64,000 bases of DNA from Escherichia phage Esco_phi_B-01. The notes below the pieces were generated by a model. It saw nothing but the letters and a program-made list of their open reading frames with translations. It was not told the origin of the DNA and ran no database searches. Below are positions 17,583 through 23,656 of this stretch, one piece after another (the stretch's first letter is position 1; the number at the start of each line of letters is the position of its first letter). The stretch lies in the sequence record OP292222.1; one strand, given 5' to 3'. A program made the translations under genes and the position numbers.

Positions 17583-17904
17583 TTTATCTGATTTAGATAA
17601 TTTTGTTAAAGATACTGAAGAGGGTCCTAGTGACCCTCGTTATTATGAGAAATCGTTAGATATAATCCGTAAGTCAATGGGTTCTGTTAAGCAGGAAATT
17701 ATGCTTACATTACCTGATGGCACTGCTCACATCGTTTATGTGATGAATATTGTTATTGAGAAAGATGGAAAAGTGTCGGTTGATTTCGGAACGCCTTCCG
17801 AAGACCGAAAAGAAGAGCTAGCGCTTCATGTAGAAAAATGTGTTACAATGCAAATACAAGAAGAACTGGATAAAATTAAATCTAAGAGGTGGTGGAAGTG
17901 GTAG
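17575..17904 (+). CDS. 40: gp40-like protein (name by position between uvsX and 41)
   Basis: 109 aa ORF overlapping both neighbours; positional assignment only. Confidence 0.5.
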   Translation: MTDLSDLDNFVKDTEEGPSDPRYYEKSLDIIRKSMGSVKQEIMLTLPDGTAHIVYVMNIVIEKDGKVSVDFGTPSEDRKEELALHVEKCVTMQIQEELDKIKSKRWWKW

Positions 17905-19328
17905 AAACTATTTTGGCTCAACTGCTAGGCAATAGTGATTATTTCACTAAGGTCTGGCCTTATATGAATGATTCTTATTTTGACCAGGGTCCGGCAAAGA
18001 CCCTTTTCAAAGAAATCAAAAAACATGTCAATGAATATAATGCGGTGCCTTCTAAAAATGCTTTGAGTATTGCATTAGATAACAGCACCCTTTCAGAAGT
18101 TGAACATCAAGGAGCTAAAGAGCTTTTAAATTCTCTGAATGCAGGCCCTGAAGACCAAGAATGGTTGGTTAAAGAGACAGAGAAATATGTTCAGAAGGCA
18201 GCGATGTATAATGCCACTTCAAAAATTATTGAAATTCAAACTAATGCCGACCTTCCGGTTGAGCAACAAAATAGAAAACTCCCAGGTATTGGTGCTATTC
18301 CAGATATCATGCGTGATGCATTATCGATTTGTTTCGATTCTGAATTAGGCCATGACTGGATGGATGACTATGAAGAACGTTTTAAAAGTTATTCTGATAA
18401 AGCACGTAAGGTTCCATTCCGTCTTAATATTCTGAATAAGATTACTAAGGGTGGCGCTGAGTTTGGTACTGAAAACGTATTGTTAGCAGGAACAAACGTA
18501 GGTAAGTCTCTGGGTCTGTGTTCATTGGCTGCTGATTACCTTCAATCCGGTTACGATGTTCTTTATATCTCCATGGAGATGGCAGAGGAAGTATGTGCTA
18601 AGCGTATCGATGCTAACCTTCTAGATGTATCACTGGATGATATTGATGATGGTCACGTCTCATGGCCTGAATATAAAGCCAAGATGGATAAGTGGCGTTC
18701 AACTGCTACTTTAGGTCGTTTAAAGATTAAACAGTATCCTACTGGTGGTGCTAATGCCGATACATTCCGTGCATTATTAAACGAATACAAGCTCAAACAA
18801 AACTTTGTCCCACAGGTCGTTATCGTCGACTACTTGGCCATCTGTGCTTCATCCCGTACGAAAGTTTTCTCTGAAAACAGTTATGGATTGATTAAGATGG
18901 TTGCCGAAGAACTACGTGGACTTGCAGTAGAGAAGAAATTATTGTTGTGGACTGCAGCCCAGACTACTCGTGGCGCGAACGTTGCAGCCGAAATCGATAT
19001 GGCTGATATCGCTGAATCCTTTGGTATTGCACATACTGCAGACTTCATGTTAGGTGTGGTCGAGACAGAAGAGTTTGCTCAGATGGGTATGCAGATGGTT
19101 AAGCAGCTTAAATCCCGTTATGGTGATAAGAGCTACTACAACAAATTTAAGATTGGTGTTAAGAAAGGAAACCAGCGTTGGTATGAAGTTGAAGACGATT
19201 CTAACCCAGGCCCAGTGAACACCGTTCGTGAGGCTACAGGTGAAATGAATCGCCAAGCAGAGGTCAATCGTCAGTCGCGTGTTAATAGAAGCGATTTAGA
19301 CGATTTAGCAGCATCTATCAAATTTTAA
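17889..19328 (+). CDS. 41: gp41 replicative DNA helicase (DnaB-like)
   Basis: GTG start aligning MVEVV.. to T4 MVEII..; Walker A GTNVGKS; C-terminus like T4 gp41. Confidence 0.93.
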   Translation: MVEVVETILAQLLGNSDYFTKVWPYMNDSYFDQGPAKTLFKEIKKHVNEYNAVPSKNALSIALDNSTLSEVEHQGAKELLNSLNAGPEDQEWLVKETEKYVQKAAMYNATSKIIEIQTNADLPVEQQNRKLPGIGAIPDIMRDALSICFDSELGHDWMDDYEERFKSYSDKARKVPFRLNILNKITKGGAEFGTENVLLAGTNVGKSLGLCSLAADYLQSGYDVLYISMEMAEEVCAKRIDANLLDVSLDDIDDGHVSWPEYKAKMDKWRSTATLGRLKIKQYPTGGANADTFRALLNEYKLKQNFVPQVVIVDYLAICASSRTKVFSENSYGLIKMVAEELRGLAVEKKLLLWTAAQTTRGANVAAEIDMADIAESFGIAHTADFMLGVVETEEFAQMGMQMVKQLKSRYGDKSYYNKFKIGVKKGNQRWYEVEDDSNPGPVNTVREATGEMNRQAEVNRQSRVNRSDLDDLAASIKF

Positions 19329-19349
19329 GGAGCTTCGGCTCCTTTTTTG
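19328..19349 (+). terminator. intrinsic terminator (aggagc-ttcg-gctcct + T6)
   Basis: UUCG-loop hairpin plus T run immediately after gene 41. Confidence 0.65.
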
Positions 19350-19386: not shown

Positions 19387-19412
19387 AGACCTGTCAACTA
19401 ATGGAGAACAAA

Positions 19413-19730
19413 ATGAAAACCATCGACTGTAAAGCGGAATATAAAGTGTATTACCATGGAAGTTGTAGTGTTGCTAATATTGGTAATATGCTTTGTCCTC
19501 CTGAGGAAACAGGAGTTCTGTCTGAAACTGGTCGTAAGAAAAACCTGAACCGTGTGTTCTTTACTGAAGATATTGGTTTGGCTAAGATTTATGCTGGCCG
19601 AGCTGCTCGTTCGGTGGGAGGAGAACCTCGTCTTTATCGTGTAATTGCTCCGGTAGATGTGGTTTGTTTAAATGATACCAAAGGCGCTACGGTTTATCAC
19701 GCTGAATGGGCCTTCTGTGAGGAAATCTAA
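19413..19730 (+). CDS. hypothetical protein (105 aa) with HGS...Y...E spacing
   Basis: ORF track; start moved to the ATG that follows RBS ggaga. Confidence 0.5.
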   Translation: MKTIDCKAEYKVYYHGSCSVANIGNMLCPPEETGVLSETGRKKNLNRVFFTEDIGLAKIYAGRAARSVGGEPRLYRVIAPVDVVCLNDTKGATVYHAEWAFCEEI

Positions 19731-20374: not shown

Positions 20375-20668
20375 ATGAAAAAGTTATTAATCGCAGCAAT
20401 CCTTACAGTAGCATCATGTGGTACAGCTCCAGTTACGGCTGGATTGGATAAAGACCTTTGTGAATGGTCTATGACCGCAGACCAAGAATCAGTTGAACAT
20501 CAGATTTACGCTGATATCATGAATATCACTAAACGTGACCGTCCTGATATGGTTAAAGAAGTATCTGACCAATTGGCTTCTAGCGGTGTTATGCAGTATA
20601 ACTATGTTCTGTACTGTGATGCTAATTTCGATAACAAAAATATTGTTAAAGAGGTGATAGGTGAATAA
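20375..20668 (+). CDS. sp: Spackle-like periplasmic protein (Sp)
   Basis: 97 aa with signal peptide; DKDLCEWSMTADQ...VMQYNYVLYCD resembles remembered T4 Sp. Confidence 0.5.
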   Translation: MKKLLIAAILTVASCGTAPVTAGLDKDLCEWSMTADQESVEHQIYADIMNITKRDRPDMVKEVSDQLASSGVMQYNYVLYCDANFDNKNIVKEVIGE

Positions 20669-21101
20669 GATTAACAGAAATTTGGTTATCAAAAAGCTCC
20701 GTTGCAAAAATCCAAATGCACAAGCATACAGGATGTTTTGGAGCGACGACCACCAGTACCTGGGTTATTTTCTTGTTGATAGTGATGATAGAATTACAAT
20801 GGCCCATAAACTTCTTAACAGAGAATTAAACCATTGGCAAGAACTTATTGCGGTAAGGTCTAAATTATTTTCATGTAATGCAATGCATCAATTGGTTTAT
20901 TTTTTCGCTGAAGGTATTCCTGACAAGGTTGAGTTTGATGGATTCGAATTTAAAGATATCCACCCGGACAACGAATTGAACGACCGCGTTAATATGGATA
21001 TCCCTAGCAAGTATATCAAAAACAGTCTGTTGAAAATTCTGGAAGCTCCGGTTTATTCAATTGACGACCAGATTTTTAATGCCTTTATGAACCGAGGTTA
21101 A
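20661..21101 (+). CDS. hypothetical protein (146 aa)
   Basis: ORF track; GTG start preceded by aaagagg. Confidence 0.5.
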   Translation: MNKINRNLVIKKLRCKNPNAQAYRMFWSDDHQYLGYFLVDSDDRITMAHKLLNRELNHWQELIAVRSKLFSCNAMHQLVYFFAEGIPDKVEFDGFEFKDIHPDNELNDRVNMDIPSKYIKNSLLKILEAPVYSIDDQIFNAFMNRG

Positions 21102-21102
21102 T

Positions 21103-21294
21103 ATGACTGCAATGTGTACGGGCTCTAAGATTTCTGTATTCGAACTGTTCGAAGAATATGAAATCGTATCAAAAGACCAAGAAGCTATCCATATTATTGC
21201 CGGTGATGGCGTAACTTGGATTATCCCACTTTACCACGAAGATACATATGAAGTCACTGATGCAAATGGTGATAAAGCTATTTTCGTAATATAA
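21103..21294 (+). CDS. hypothetical protein (63 aa)
   Basis: ORF track; start 2 nt after upstream stop. Confidence 0.45.
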   Translation: MTAMCTGSKISVFELFEEYEIVSKDQEAIHIIAGDGVTWIIPLYHEDTYEVTDANGDKAIFVI

Positions 21295-21297
21295 ATA
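21290..21297 (+). promoter_or_regulatory. T4 late promoter box TATAAATA
   Basis: exact TATAAATA 14 nt upstream of the ATG at 21311. Confidence 0.45.
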
Positions 21298-21310
21298 AGG
21301 CCAGGAGCCT

Positions 21311-21472
21311 ATGAAATCTTTTAAAGAAGTTATGAACGAAGATATGGTCGCAGGCGATGCTGGTGGAAATCCATCTAATATTGCCTCCGGAACTACCTCA
21401 GGCGCAGTCGTCAACAAAGGGCCTGAACAAATCCCATCTAAAAAGCGTAAAGAAAAATCCGAAAACGAATGA
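21311..21472 (+). CDS. small Gly/Ser-rich protein (53 aa) with basic tail
   Basis: RBS aggag; preceded by a late-promoter box. Confidence 0.4.
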   Translation: MKSFKEVMNEDMVAGDAGGNPSNIASGTTSGAVVNKGPEQIPSKKRKEKSENE

Positions 21473-21510
21473 TATAATGGCTCTATTAATTTAGAGCCCA
21501 AGGAAAAATA

Positions 21511-22539
21511 ATGTCATATGTCGATAGAGAATTTGCTGTACGTGCCTTGAATTACCAACCTAAATTCAGACAAGTAACTGGTAGTGATTTTAAATTAAAC
21601 TGTCGTTGTCGTGTATGCGGCGACTCCCAAAAGGATGAGAACAAAGCTCGATTCTGGGCCTATCCAGCCAATGACGGCTCTGTAATGCTACACTGTTTTA
21701 ACTGTGATTATTCGGCAGGAATTAAGAAGTACCTATACGAATATGAGCCTGATTTATATCGCGAATATATTCTTGAGAAACATAAAGAGCAATCGTTCGG
21801 GAGACAAGCTGCGCCTAAGGTGGAGATATCTGAAAAAATTAAAGCTAAGATGCCTGTCATTGAAAAGCTTAATTTCTGTGAACGATTAGATAGAATGCCG
21901 AAAGACCATCCTATTATTAAGTATGTAACTCTGCGGTGCATTCCTGAAAATAAATGGAATCGGTTATGGTTTACTAAAGAATGGCCTGCATTGGTGAATT
22001 CTGTTAATCCAGGGACATATTCCAAAGAAATGCCTGAACCACGTTTGGTTATTCCAATTTTCAATAAGAATAAACAAATTGAAAGTTTTCAGGGCCGAGC
22101 CTTACGTAAAGATGCTCCACAAAAATATATTACAATAAAAGCTCATGACCAAGCTACAAAAATATATGGAATGGATACAGTTGACGAACGTCAATTGGTG
22201 TGGGTAATGGAAGGTCCTATTGATTCATTATTCGTACCTAATGCAATAGCAATTACTGGTGGGTCGTTGGACTTGGCTATGGTTCCATGTAAAGAAACTC
22301 GTGCCTGGGTAATGGACAATGAACCCCGTCATCCTGACACAATTAAGCGTATGCAACGATTAGTTGATGCCGGCGAAAGGGTCCTATTCTGGGACAAGGC
22401 CCCATGGCCTTCTAAAGATATAAATGATATGGTTATGAAAGATAAAGCTGATATAAATGATGTATTGGCATATATGAAAGCTAATATAGCCCAAGGGTTA
22501 ATGGCAAAAATGAGGCTTTCAAAATATTCTAAAATTTAG
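21511..22539 (+). CDS. 61: gp61 DNA primase
   Basis: 342 aa; zinc-ribbon CRCRVCGD...CFNC; C-terminus NIAQGLMAKMRLSKYSKI matches T4 gp61. Confidence 0.92.
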   Translation: MSYVDREFAVRALNYQPKFRQVTGSDFKLNCRCRVCGDSQKDENKARFWAYPANDGSVMLHCFNCDYSAGIKKYLYEYEPDLYREYILEKHKEQSFGRQAAPKVEISEKIKAKMPVIEKLNFCERLDRMPKDHPIIKYVTLRCIPENKWNRLWFTKEWPALVNSVNPGTYSKEMPEPRLVIPIFNKNKQIESFQGRALRKDAPQKYITIKAHDQATKIYGMDTVDERQLVWVMEGPIDSLFVPNAIAITGGSLDLAMVPCKETRAWVMDNEPRHPDTIKRMQRLVDAGERVLFWDKAPWPSKDINDMVMKDKADINDVLAYMKANIAQGLMAKMRLSKYSKI

Positions 22540-22736
22540 ACAGGAACTCCGCTAAAGAATCCAATTATGCTTAATACGTGTTCCATTGTAACCGCTGGTA
22601 AAATTACCCCTTGGCTAGCGGCTACAGGAACTACTAAAAGATTCCAAAGGAATACGTCTAGCGCAAGAAAACCTAACATCATTTTCTTGTCTTTCTTTTC
22701 AGCCAATTTCCAGATTTGGTAAAAAATACTACCCAT
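22536..22736 (-). CDS. small membrane protein (66 aa) on the opposite strand
   Basis: strong minus-strand RBS AGGAGGA 5 nt before ATG; amphipathic N-terminus then TM segment. Confidence 0.5.
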   Translation of the reverse strand: MGSIFYQIWKLAEKKDKKMMLGFLALDVFLWNLLVVPVAASQGVILPAVTMEHVLSIIGFFSGVPV

Positions 22737-23354: not shown

Positions 23355-23362
23355 TATAAATA
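23355..23362 (+). promoter_or_regulatory. T4 late promoter box TATAAATA upstream of soc
   Basis: exact TATAAATA about 30 nt before the soc ATG. Confidence 0.6.
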
Positions 23363-23393
23363 CACCTGTAATTAAACAACAAAGGAGTTAATT

Positions 23394-23627
23394 ATGGGTG
23401 GTTTCGTTAATATCAAAACCTTTACGCATCCAGCTGGTGAAGGTAAAGAAGTTAAAGGTACTGAGGTTTCAGTTCCGTTTGAAATCTATTCAAATGAGCA
23501 TCGTATTGCCAATGCTCATTATCAGACTTTCCCTTCGGCCGTTGCAGCCTATACTACTGTAGTGACTGATGCAGCCGATTGGCGAACTAAGAACGCGGCG
23601 ATGTTTACGCCTACCGATATTGTTTAA
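23394..23627 (+). CDS. soc: Soc small outer capsid protein
   Basis: GFVNIKTF...AHYQTFPS matches T4 Soc; late promoter upstream; RBS aaaggag. Confidence 0.8.
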   Translation: MGGFVNIKTFTHPAGEGKEVKGTEVSVPFEIYSNEHRIANAHYQTFPSAVAAYTTVVTDAADWRTKNAAMFTPTDIV

Positions 23628-23632
23628 TTATA

Positions 23633-23656
23633 AGGAACCTTCGGGTTCCTTTTTTC
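23633..23656 (+). terminator. intrinsic terminator (aggaacc-ttcg-ggttcct + T6)
   Basis: GC stem, UUCG loop, T run. Confidence 0.7.

What the first reader, a model, noticed from the sequence alone, without database searches (positions are those of the whole stretch)
21290..21472. Late-promoter box in front of a small Gly/Ser-rich ORF embedded in the early primase region
An exact TATAAATA lies 14 nt upstream of a 53-aa ORF (RBS aggag) immediately before gene 61. Late promoters inside early clusters are uncommon, so the product may be needed late (structural or internal protein?), or the box may give late read-through expression of the primase.
Basis: partly seen in the sequence, partly recalled or inferred. 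Interest (0 to 1): 0.4.

Follow-up and report, generated by a model that had tools for sequence, protein, structure and literature searches.

The report
Late promoter before capsid-mimic gene 61.1
A T4-type late promoter sits directly in front of the small conserved phage gene 61.1, whose 53-residue product copies the cleavage-site and N-terminal-arm segment of the major capsid protein and begins like the phage's packaged internal proteins, so it is probably a head-associated peptide rather than a replication protein.

Summary
An exact TATAAATA lies at 21290-21297, AGGAG at 21303-21307, and the ATG of a 53-aa ORF at 21311, 38 nt before primase gene 61. The window is a Dhakavirus (a JS98/JS10-like T4-type phage).

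One 8-mer is not significant by count (4 found, about 7 expected). But all four boxes in the window lie 13-32 nt upstream of same-strand start codons. The other three serve the late genes soc, t and 34. The box, or an ATAAATA/TAAATA remnant, is kept at the same distance in 17 of 25 distinct upstream contexts of this gene family, against 13% of control gene starts. T4 itself lacks it.

The ORF is the known but uncharacterised gene 61.1. New here:
- Its residues 2-46 are homologous to gp23 residues 57-101, which span the gp21 maturation cleavage site and the N-arm.
- The invariant Glu10 aligns with the gp23 cleavage residue.

The best reading is a real gp55-type late promoter driving a prohead-targeted, gp21-processed peptide. 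Read-through into primase is not excluded. Late timing and virion presence are untested.

The parts
21290..21297 (+). Exact T4-type late promoter box TATAAATA (-13 to -6). It contains the TAA stop codon (21292-21294) of the upstream ORF.
   Evidence: Conserved at -21/-24 from the ATG in three lineages with different flanks. The TAAATA core is present in 17 of 25 upstream contexts against 18 of 136 control starts, Fisher p = 4.6e-8.
21303..21303 (+). Predicted late transcription start (+1, A). It would give an 8-nt leader, 5'-AGGAGCCU-AUG.
   Evidence: Inferred from the rule that the box occupies -13 to -6 (paper text). The proximal late box of T4 gene e has the same 13-nt box-to-ATG gap.
21303..21307 (+). 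Shine-Dalgarno AGGAG, 3 nt before the ATG. It contains GGAG.
   Evidence: In the read-through RNA only a weak 4-bp stem (21298-21301 with 21307-21310) flanks it, leaving most of the SD in the loop; the fold is no more stable than shuffles (z = -0.11).
21311..21472 (+). Gene 61.1 orthologue, 53 aa (phrog_1823).
   Evidence: Annotated 61.1 in JS10. PHROG E = 5e-32. tblastn matches in 1476 phage records.
21311..21340 (+). Residues 1-10, MKSFKEVMNE: a diverged capsid-targeting-sequence-like decapeptide ending in invariant Glu10, the predicted gp21 P1 residue.
   Evidence: T4 IPII and IPIII start MKTYQEFIAE. The four JS10 internal proteins start MKTY(Q/N/K)EFI(T/A/K)E. The window N-terminus ranks 8th of 1796 ORF N-termini; orthologues such as MKTYKEFIKE score in the internal-protein range. 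E10 is invariant. The L/I-x-E rule and the roles of CTS residues come from the review read.
21341..21448 (+). Residues 11-46: the segment homologous to gp23 residues 66-101 (N-arm/'N-fist' of the mature capsid protein), motif GDxGxNxxNIAxGxTSGAVxxxGP.
   Evidence: BLASTP E = 3e-9 and 6e-9. The family profile hits only gp23 in the whole PDB, E = 7e-7 and 5e-10. hmmsearch against T4 head proteins.
21440..21457 (+). Conserved basic tail KKRKEK (K44 invariant).
21103..21294 (+). Upstream 63-aa ORF (phrog_3249), absent from T4. Its last sense codon and stop codon form part of the box.
21473..21498 (+). Conserved TATAAT (21473-21478) followed by hairpin GGCTCTA/TAGAGCC (21479-21498) between 61.1 and gene 61. 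There is no T-run in this phage.
   Evidence: Fold z = -3.4. The same position carries different complementary stems in at least 12 lineages, five of them with a T-run. Not called a terminator here.
21511..22539 (+). Gene 61 (DNA primase), the next gene in the same transcription unit.
   Evidence: Strong terminators are found only after gene 41 (19327-19344) and after soc (23632-23651).

Best explanation
The box is a functional gp55/gp33/gp45-dependent late promoter. Transcription should start at about A21303, so the late mRNA begins at the Shine-Dalgarno sequence of gene 61.1. This adds late expression to whatever early or middle read-through supplies from upstream promoters.

gp61.1 is a truncated member of a T4-superfamily protein family. 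In most genera the family member is about 155 aa and always lies next to primase gene 61. Its conserved C-terminal part is a paralogue of gp23 residues ~34-101, meaning the end of the propeptide, the gp21 cleavage site and the N-arm.

In the short form, the ten residues before the invariant Glu look like the capsid targeting sequence of internal proteins. I infer three steps:
1. The peptide is made when heads are assembled.
2. It is taken into the prohead core.
3. It is cut by gp21 after Glu10, leaving a ~43-residue peptide with an N-arm-like motif and a KKRK tail.

Shown here: the sequence features, the homology, and the conservation of the box. Inferred: promoter activity (about 0.8) and prohead targeting with cleavage (about 0.4). 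What the peptide then does is unknown. It might occupy N-arm binding sites, compete with gp23 for gp21 or the scaffold, or be injected with the DNA.
For: Promoter:
- The box is exact.
- All 4 boxes in the window precede same-strand starts, three of them canonical late genes.
- In the whole JS10 genome, 28 boxes occur and 21 lie 13-48 nt before an SD plus ATG.
- The box is exact in Dhakavirus, in the L033 group and in the L037 group. Their last sense codons differ (ATA, GTA, CTA), the box-to-ATG spacers are unrelated, and in L037 the upstream gene is different.
- TAAATA is kept in 17 of 25 contexts regardless of the upstream reading frame, against 13% of controls, p = 4.6e-8.
- T4 gene e has the same 13-nt gap.
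- gp33, gp45 and part of gp55 are encoded in the window.
- L037 has box, 61.1, then hairpin plus T-run, which looks like a self-contained late unit.

Protein:
- gp23 homology.
- Invariant E10 preceded by I/L/V/M at P3 in both short and long forms.
- CTS likeness, read against the published rules.
- The gp23 segment it copies is inside the prohead, contacts the scaffold, and is later externalised.
Against: - There is no transcript or proteome evidence for this phage.
- T4 61.1 has no box and abuts 61.2. Its RNA is classed early and its protein was not detected in a time-resolved proteome. The ip genes are also 'early RNA, late protein' there.
- The window's CTS-like decapeptide is diverged: V at position 7, and M rather than L/I at P3. 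It scores 19.5 against 40-42 for true internal proteins.
- The long forms have no N-terminal CTS.
- The 8-nt leader with a 3-nt SD spacer is the shortest box-to-ATG arrangement in JS10 and may translate poorly.
- Six contexts carry nTTAAATA, which may be inactive.
- Conserved synteny with primase, and neighbours that are anti-defence genes, suggest other roles.
- AlphaFold gives no confident fold (pLDDT 66.6).
Confidence: 0.55

Rival explanations
1. The box mainly supplies late transcripts for the downstream replication genes 61 (primase) and 56 (dCTPase). Gene 61.1 is simply the first cistron of that unit.
For: No intrinsic terminator lies between 61.1 and 61 in this phage. The next strong terminator is after soc, at 23632-23651. 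The 61.1-to-61 synteny holds from T4 to KVP40-type phages.
Against: In five lineages a hairpin with a T-run follows 61.1, including L037, which has an exact box. The box is tied tightly to the 61.1 start, at 13-16 nt, so the transcript begins at its SD. In the window a stable hairpin whose extension pairs with the gene 61 AUG lies in between. T4 manages without any late promoter here.
Confidence: 0.2
2. The box is a by-product of an AT-rich gene junction (xTA + TAA + ATA) and is not used as a promoter.
For: The count of boxes in the window is below random expectation. The box overlaps a stop codon. T4 lacks it. The leader would be unusually short.
Against: No stray box exists anywhere in the window, and all 4 precede gene starts. 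The non-coding ATA after the stop is invariant while the next 13-16 nt diverge. TAAATA is kept in contexts where the stop codon is in another frame or is TAG. It is enriched against control starts, p = 4.6e-8.
Confidence: 0.1
3. gp61.1 is a cytoplasmic mimic of the gp23 N-terminal segment. It would be made alongside gp23 and titrate something that binds that segment, such as a host sensor of the capsid protein, a chaperone, or gp21 itself. It would not be a packaged protein.
For: Its neighbours are counter-defence genes: dmd, sp, and a relative of the 61.2/AdfA tail. 61.4 is TifA, from my memory of the literature. A known abortive-infection trigger (Gol/Lit) maps to the first quarter of gp23. 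The peptide is predicted to be disordered.
Against: The family is conserved and syntenic across the whole T4 superfamily, unlike typical variable counter-defence genes. The cleavage-site Glu and the P3 hydrophobic residue are conserved, and the CTS-like N-terminus points to the prohead. I could not establish that the Gol peptide overlaps residues 57-101.
Confidence: 0.15
4. gp61.1 works with the primase or helicase in replication, and the similarity to gp23 is a relic of an old partial duplication with no head role.
For: Strict adjacency to gene 61 in every lineage examined. T4 61.1 RNA is early.
Against: A late promoter element is the commonest upstream feature of the family. The conserved residues are exactly those shared with gp23, including the protease site. 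No similarity to any replication protein was found.
Confidence: 0.1

Closest known systems
T4 late genes embedded in early regions: soc and e (lysozyme), with TATAAATA late promoters
   Same: An exact TATAAATA lies just upstream of a small late-needed gene sitting among early genes on the early strand. soc lies 2 kb downstream in this same cluster with its own box at 23355. The proximal box of T4 gene e has the identical 13-nt gap to the ATG.
   Different: For e and soc, the published model (from my memory of the literature) is that early read-through RNA hides the ribosome-binding site in a hairpin. Here only a weak 4-bp stem flanks the SD and the region folds no better than shuffles (z = -0.11). 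So 61.1 should also be translatable from early read-through RNA.
T4 internal proteins IPI, IPII, IPIII and the polymorphic CTS-bearing internal proteins of T-even phages
   Same: A small protein whose first ten residues match MKTYxEFIxE, ending in the Glu after which gp21 cuts. Orthologues MKTYKEFIKE, MKTYKEFVNE and MKTYKEFVTE score like true internal proteins. The gene sits among counter-defence genes.
   Different: It lies at the primase locus, not at the ipI or ipII-ipIII loci. It is conserved across genera, whereas internal proteins are highly variable. The mature part is a gp23-like disordered segment, not a folded inhibitor. The window's decapeptide is diverged. Packaging is unproven.
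N-terminal propeptide junction and N-arm ('N-fist') of major capsid protein gp23
   Same: 40-46% identity over 37-45 residues, with the cleavage Glu aligned. gp23 is the only PDB match of the family profile.
   Different: Only this ~45-65-residue segment is shared. There is no HK97-fold body, so it cannot be a shell subunit.
T4 gene 61.1 (54 aa, function unknown)
   Same: Orthologue: same family, same place just before gene 61.
   Different: T4 has no late box. 61.2 (adfA) abuts 61.1 and there is no 63-aa ORF or spacer hairpin. T4 RNA is classed early.
Long-form 61.1 family (phrog_2086, ~155 aa; RB69, RB49, RB43, KVP40 and Acinetobacter-phage types)
   Same: The C-terminal ~55 residues are the same module: (L/I/V/M)xE | xMVAGDxGG..NIAsGxTsG..GP..KKRK. 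The locus is the same and a late box is often present.
   Different: The long form has an extra confidently predicted helical N-domain (pLDDT 91-97) with no PDB fold match. That domain is absent from the JS10 genome. The short form replaces it with a CTS-like decapeptide.

Membership tests
T4-type (gp55-dependent) late promoter | TATAAATA at -13 to -6, with no -35 element required | tested here: met
   Exact 8-mer at 21290-21297. Rule as stated in the paper read.
T4-type (gp55-dependent) late promoter | Phage encodes gp55, gp33 and the gp45 clamp | tested here: met
   gp33 and gp45 are complete, and the C-terminal part of gp55 is present, at 100% identity to JS10 in the window.
T4-type (gp55-dependent) late promoter | Lies on the coding strand a short distance upstream of a gene start, in a genome where stray boxes are avoided | tested here: met
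   13 nt before the ATG. 4 of 4 window boxes, and 21 of 28 JS10 boxes, precede an SD plus ATG at 13-48 nt.
T4-type (gp55-dependent) late promoter | Box conserved in relatives while the flanks diverge | tested here: met
   T4 and its genus are the exception.
T4-type (gp55-dependent) late promoter | A replication- and gp55-dependent 5' end about 6 nt downstream, appearing late | not testable with these tools
   No transcript data for a Dhakavirus were found.
gp61.1 family (phrog_1823 / phrog_2086) | Sequence match to the family, and position immediately upstream of gene 61 | tested here: met
   E = 5e-32 and 6e-17. Synteny.
CTS-bearing head internal proteins (IP/PIN) | N-terminal decapeptide MKTYxEFIxE, with residues 4 and 7 important for targeting | tested here: inconclusive
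   The window has MKSFKEVMNE (F4, V7) and ranks 8th of 1796 N-termini. Orthologues 91% identical overall have MKTYKEFVNE, which scores in the internal-protein range. Residue roles.
CTS-bearing head internal proteins (IP/PIN) | gp21 site L/I-x-E at residues 8-10 | tested here: inconclusive
   E10 is invariant. P3 is M in the window and I, L or V in most relatives. Whether M is accepted is unknown.
CTS-bearing head internal proteins (IP/PIN) | Found, processed, in proheads and virions, and injected | not testable with these tools
   The T4 whole-cell proteome did not detect gp61.1. No virion data were found.
Major capsid protein gp23 (HK97 fold) | HK97-fold P and A domains forming capsomers | tested here: not met
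   Only 53 aa. Homology is limited to gp23 residues 57-101. No Pfam match. The database label 'major capsid domain-containing protein' overstates it.

The most novel reading that the evidence does not exclude
gp61.1 is an unrecognised, superfamily-wide head component of T4-like phages. It would be a free-standing copy of the gp23 propeptide junction and N-arm that enters the prohead through a CTS-like signal in short forms, or through an unknown N-domain in long forms. gp21 would cut it at the conserved Glu. The processed peptide would then either fill N-arm/'N-fist' binding sites that lack a gp23 arm (next to gp24 vertices or the portal), tune gp21 or scaffold interactions of gp23, or be injected with the DNA. 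It would also link the internal-protein capsid targeting sequence in evolution to the capsid protein's own cleavage junction.
Probability: 0.35. Interest if true: 0.65.

Novelty: new member of a known kind. Interest (0 to 1): 0.45.

Why it matters
The late promoter itself is an ordinary kind of element. Its value is as a pointer.

Gene 61.1 is one of the few ORFs conserved across T4-like phages that still has no function. It was listed as such in 2006, and I found nothing on its function in the searchable literature. A late promoter, a capsid-protein-derived segment with the protease site preserved, and an internal-protein-like N-terminus together turn 'hypothetical protein next to primase' into a specific prediction. 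Two simple experiments would test it: late 5'-end mapping, and peptide-level mass spectrometry of proheads and virions.

If confirmed, it would add a conserved small component to the best-studied phage head. It would also extend the set of natural capsid-targeting signals used to load cargo into T4 capsids.

Tried and rejected
- **Pfam, NCBIfam and Rfam** gave nothing for the ORF or the region.
- **Gene-e-like translational switch.** I tested whether early RNA hides the SD in a hairpin. Only a weak 4-bp stem flanks the SD and the region folds no better than shuffles (z = -0.11), so I rejected it.
- **AlphaFold of the 53-aa family** has low confidence (pLDDT 66.6, pTM 0.19). It was not used for fold search.
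- **Long-form structure.** AlphaFold gave a confident helical N-domain, but Foldseek found no PDB relative (best E = 5.9) and only uncharacterised viral proteins. Its function stays unknown.
- **N-domain elsewhere in the genome.** I looked for it in JS10 and found none.
- **Word-indexed protein search** returned only 23 close relatives. The exhaustive profile search found 60 representatives at E <= 0.001, almost all 50-250 aa. Capsid proteins did not pass at that database size. The gp23 link therefore rests on targeted comparisons.
- **Published late-promoter predictions** for RB43 and 44RR list sites near this locus. At the coordinates I mapped I saw no box, so I did not use them.
- **Gol peptide.** The primary paper was not available, so overlap with the 61.1-like segment is unresolved.
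- **The TATAAT at 21473-21478.** I considered it as a promoter for gene 61. By eye on the sequence read, I saw no -35 or MotA-box-like sequence upstream.

Full report
**Identity of the window.** The region 20600-22600 is 98% identical to Escherichia phage JS10 and 97% to JS98 (genus Dhakavirus, Straboviridae). A blastn of the whole window shows it is collinear with JS10, running from gene 55 through rIIA and rIIB to about gene 32. The local gene order is 41 helicase (17889-19328), a 109-aa ORF, dmd, 61.4, sp, a 146-aa ORF, a 63-aa ORF, 61.1, 61 primase, 56 and soc.

**The observation.**
- TATAAATA lies at 21290-21297, AGGAG at 21303-21307, and the ATG at 21311.
- The ORF runs to 21472 (53 aa), and gene 61 starts at 21511.
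- The box contains the TAA stop of the upstream 63-aa ORF.
- An exact 8-mer is not remarkable by count: 4 in the window against 6.97 +/- 2.76 expected.

**Is the box a promoter?** Three lines of evidence say probably yes.

First, position.
- All four boxes in the window lie upstream of same-strand starts: 61.1 (13 nt), soc (31 nt), holin t (18 nt) and tail-fibre gene 34 (32 nt). There is no box anywhere else.
- In the complete JS10 genome, 28 boxes occur and 21 lie 13-48 nt before an SD plus ATG of known late genes.

Second, conservation.
- In IMG/VR relatives the box is exact at -21/-24 from the ATG in three groups. These groups differ in the last sense codon of the upstream ORF (ATA, GTA, CTA), have unrelated box-to-ATG spacers, and in one case have a different upstream gene.
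- Over 25 distinct upstream contexts of the family, 17 carry TAAATA within 40 nt: 6 TATAAATA, 5 [ACG]ATAAATA and 6 nTTAAATA. In some of these the upstream stop is TAG or lies in another frame.
- Only 18 of 136 control JS10 gene starts carry it (Fisher p = 4.6e-8).

Third, machinery and precedent.
- gp33, gp45 and part of gp55 are encoded in the window.
- With the box at -13 to -6, +1 falls on A21303, giving the leader AGGAGCCU-AUG. This is the shortest spacing in JS10, but it equals that of the proximal late box of T4 lysozyme gene e.
- The read-through RNA shows no stable SD-hiding structure: only a weak 4-bp stem flanks the SD and the fold is no better than shuffles (z = -0.11). The box therefore adds late expression rather than unlocking translation.

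T4 itself has no box here. Gene 61.2 abuts 61.1, and the only box in the T4 41-soc region is the one for soc.

**What the ORF is.** It is the orthologue of T4 gene 61.1 (phrog_1823, E = 5e-32). Gene 61.1 was named in 2006 among the conserved T4-like ORFs without function. I found no functional study. tblastn finds it in 1476 phage records, and in many of them a second hit falls in the major capsid gene.

Direct comparison confirms the capsid link.
- Window gp61.1 residues 2-46 align with T4 gp23 residues 57-101 (40% identity, E = 3e-9).
- T4 gp61.1 residues 2-38 align with gp23 residues 57-93 (46% identity, E = 6e-9).
- A family profile searched against all PDB sequences hits only gp23 (E = 7e-7). 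A profile of diverse long forms hits it at E = 5e-10, over gp23 residues 34-97.

gp23 is cut by the prohead protease gp21 after Glu65. Residues 66-105 are disordered inside the unexpanded head, probably contact the scaffold, and after expansion form the external N-arm/'N-fist', which makes inter-capsomer contacts and part of the Soc site. Glu65 aligns with Glu10 of gp61.1. Glu10 is invariant in the family and is preceded at P3 by I, L, V or M. This matches the published gp21 motif L/I-x-E.

**The N-terminus.**
- T4 IPII and IPIII begin MKTYQEFIAE.
- JS10 has four proteins that begin MKTYQEFITE, MKTYNEFIAE, MKTYKEFITE and MKTYQEFIKE.
- 61.1 orthologues begin MKTYKEFIKE (Tequatrovirus relatives of T4), MKTFKEFIKE (T4 itself), MKTYKEFVNE (VR5, 91% identical to the window protein) and MKSFKEVMNE (window).

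I scored all 1796 Met-initiated ORF N-termini of JS10 against the internal-protein decapeptides alone. The four internal proteins score 40-42. The best unrelated ORF scores 23. The window 61.1 scores 19.5 (8th), and the orthologues score 30-39. The first ten residues of IPIII are the experimentally defined capsid targeting sequence: residues 4 and 7 matter for targeting, residues 8 and 10 for cleavage. The short-form 61.1 proteins therefore look like CTS-bearing proteins, and the window copy is a diverged example.

**Family architecture.** Most genera (RB69, RB49, RB43, KVP40 and Acinetobacter-phage types) have a ~155-aa form (phrog_2086) at the same place before gene 61. It combines a confidently predicted helical N-domain with the same C-terminal module. 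The N-domain has no PDB fold match and is absent from JS10. The exhaustive search of 1.84 billion representatives finds only 60 members, so the family is small and phage-restricted. The 53-aa peptide alone is predicted to be largely unstructured.

**Downstream.** No terminator separates 61.1 from 61 in this phage. Strong terminators lie after gene 41 and after soc. Late transcripts could therefore continue into primase, dCTPase and soc. Directly after the 61.1 stop there is a conserved TATAAT followed by a stable hairpin (z = -3.4). The hairpin recurs with different complementary stems in at least 12 lineages, and in five of them it is followed by a T-run. In L037 the arrangement is box, 61.1, then terminator-like hairpin, which argues that 61.1 is what the box serves.

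**Caveats.**
- T4 61.1 RNA is classed early and the protein was not detected. The ip genes are also 'early RNA, late protein' in that data set.
- The window CTS is diverged.
- The SD spacer is short.
- Neighbours such as dmd, sp and the AdfA-tail ORF leave a counter-defence mimic role open.
- The strict synteny with primase is unexplained.

**Verdict.** The element is of a known kind. The new content is the reading of gp61.1 as a capsid-protein-derived, CTS-like, gp21-site-bearing peptide.

Noticed in passing
window 21470-21510: Right after the 61.1 stop there is a conserved 'TGA TATAAT GG' followed by a hairpin (21479-21498, fold z = -3.4). At least 12 lineages keep a hairpin here with different complementary stems (GGCTCT/AGAGCC, GGCCTT/AAGGCC, GGAACC/GGTTCC, GGGTCTC/GAGGCCC, GGAGCC/GGCTCC). 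Five add a T-run. In the window an outer stem pairs with the gene 61 AUG. T4 has only a 2-nt gap. It could be a terminator or attenuator, a processing or stabilising element, or a translational control of primase.
   Followed up: partly
window 20661-21101: A 146-aa ORF (phrog_8539) occupies the place of T4 61.2 (AdfA, anti-DarT factor) but shares only its last ~15 residues (..DDQIFNAFMNRG). The Pfam AdfA hit is weak (E = 0.0067) and covers that tail only. This suggests cassette exchange that keeps the 3' junction.
   Followed up: partly
window 19401-19730: A 109-aa ORF between gene 41 and dmd gives a sub-threshold NCBIfam hit to rifampin ADP-ribosyltransferase Arr (E = 0.079, residues 15-79). 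It may be a small ADP-ribosyltransferase-like protein.
   Followed up: no
JS10 genome 115214-115441 (L088), not in the window: uvsW.1 begins MKSFKEVIYEA, and 21 of its first 24 nt are identical to the start of 61.1. It ranks 6th of 1796 N-termini for CTS likeness. uvsW has a late box. Either a second CTS-like small protein or a chance or recombinational similarity.
   Followed up: partly
JS10 genome ORF starting at 70786 on the minus strand (97 aa; L087): A 97-aa ORF beginning MKTYQEFIKES lies in the gap between trna.4 and 57B and is not in the RefSeq feature table shown. It is probably an unannotated ipI-locus-type internal protein.
   Followed up: no
window 23355-23651: A self-contained late unit inside the early cluster: the soc late box (23355-23362), a single soc gene (23394-23627) and a strong terminator (23632-23651). 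JS10 has two soc copies here; the window has one.
   Followed up: partly
window 21303-21307: The 61.1 Shine-Dalgarno sequence contains GGAG, the RegB endoribonuclease target motif, and JS10 encodes regB. Early read-through copies might be inactivated while late transcripts starting at the SD are spared. Speculative.
   Followed up: no
window 22536-22736 (- strand): A 66-aa antisense ORF between genes 61 and 56 is annotated 'dCTP pyrophosphatase' in phage dhabil. The name is probably misapplied to a small hydrophobic ORF or a non-gene.
   Followed up: no
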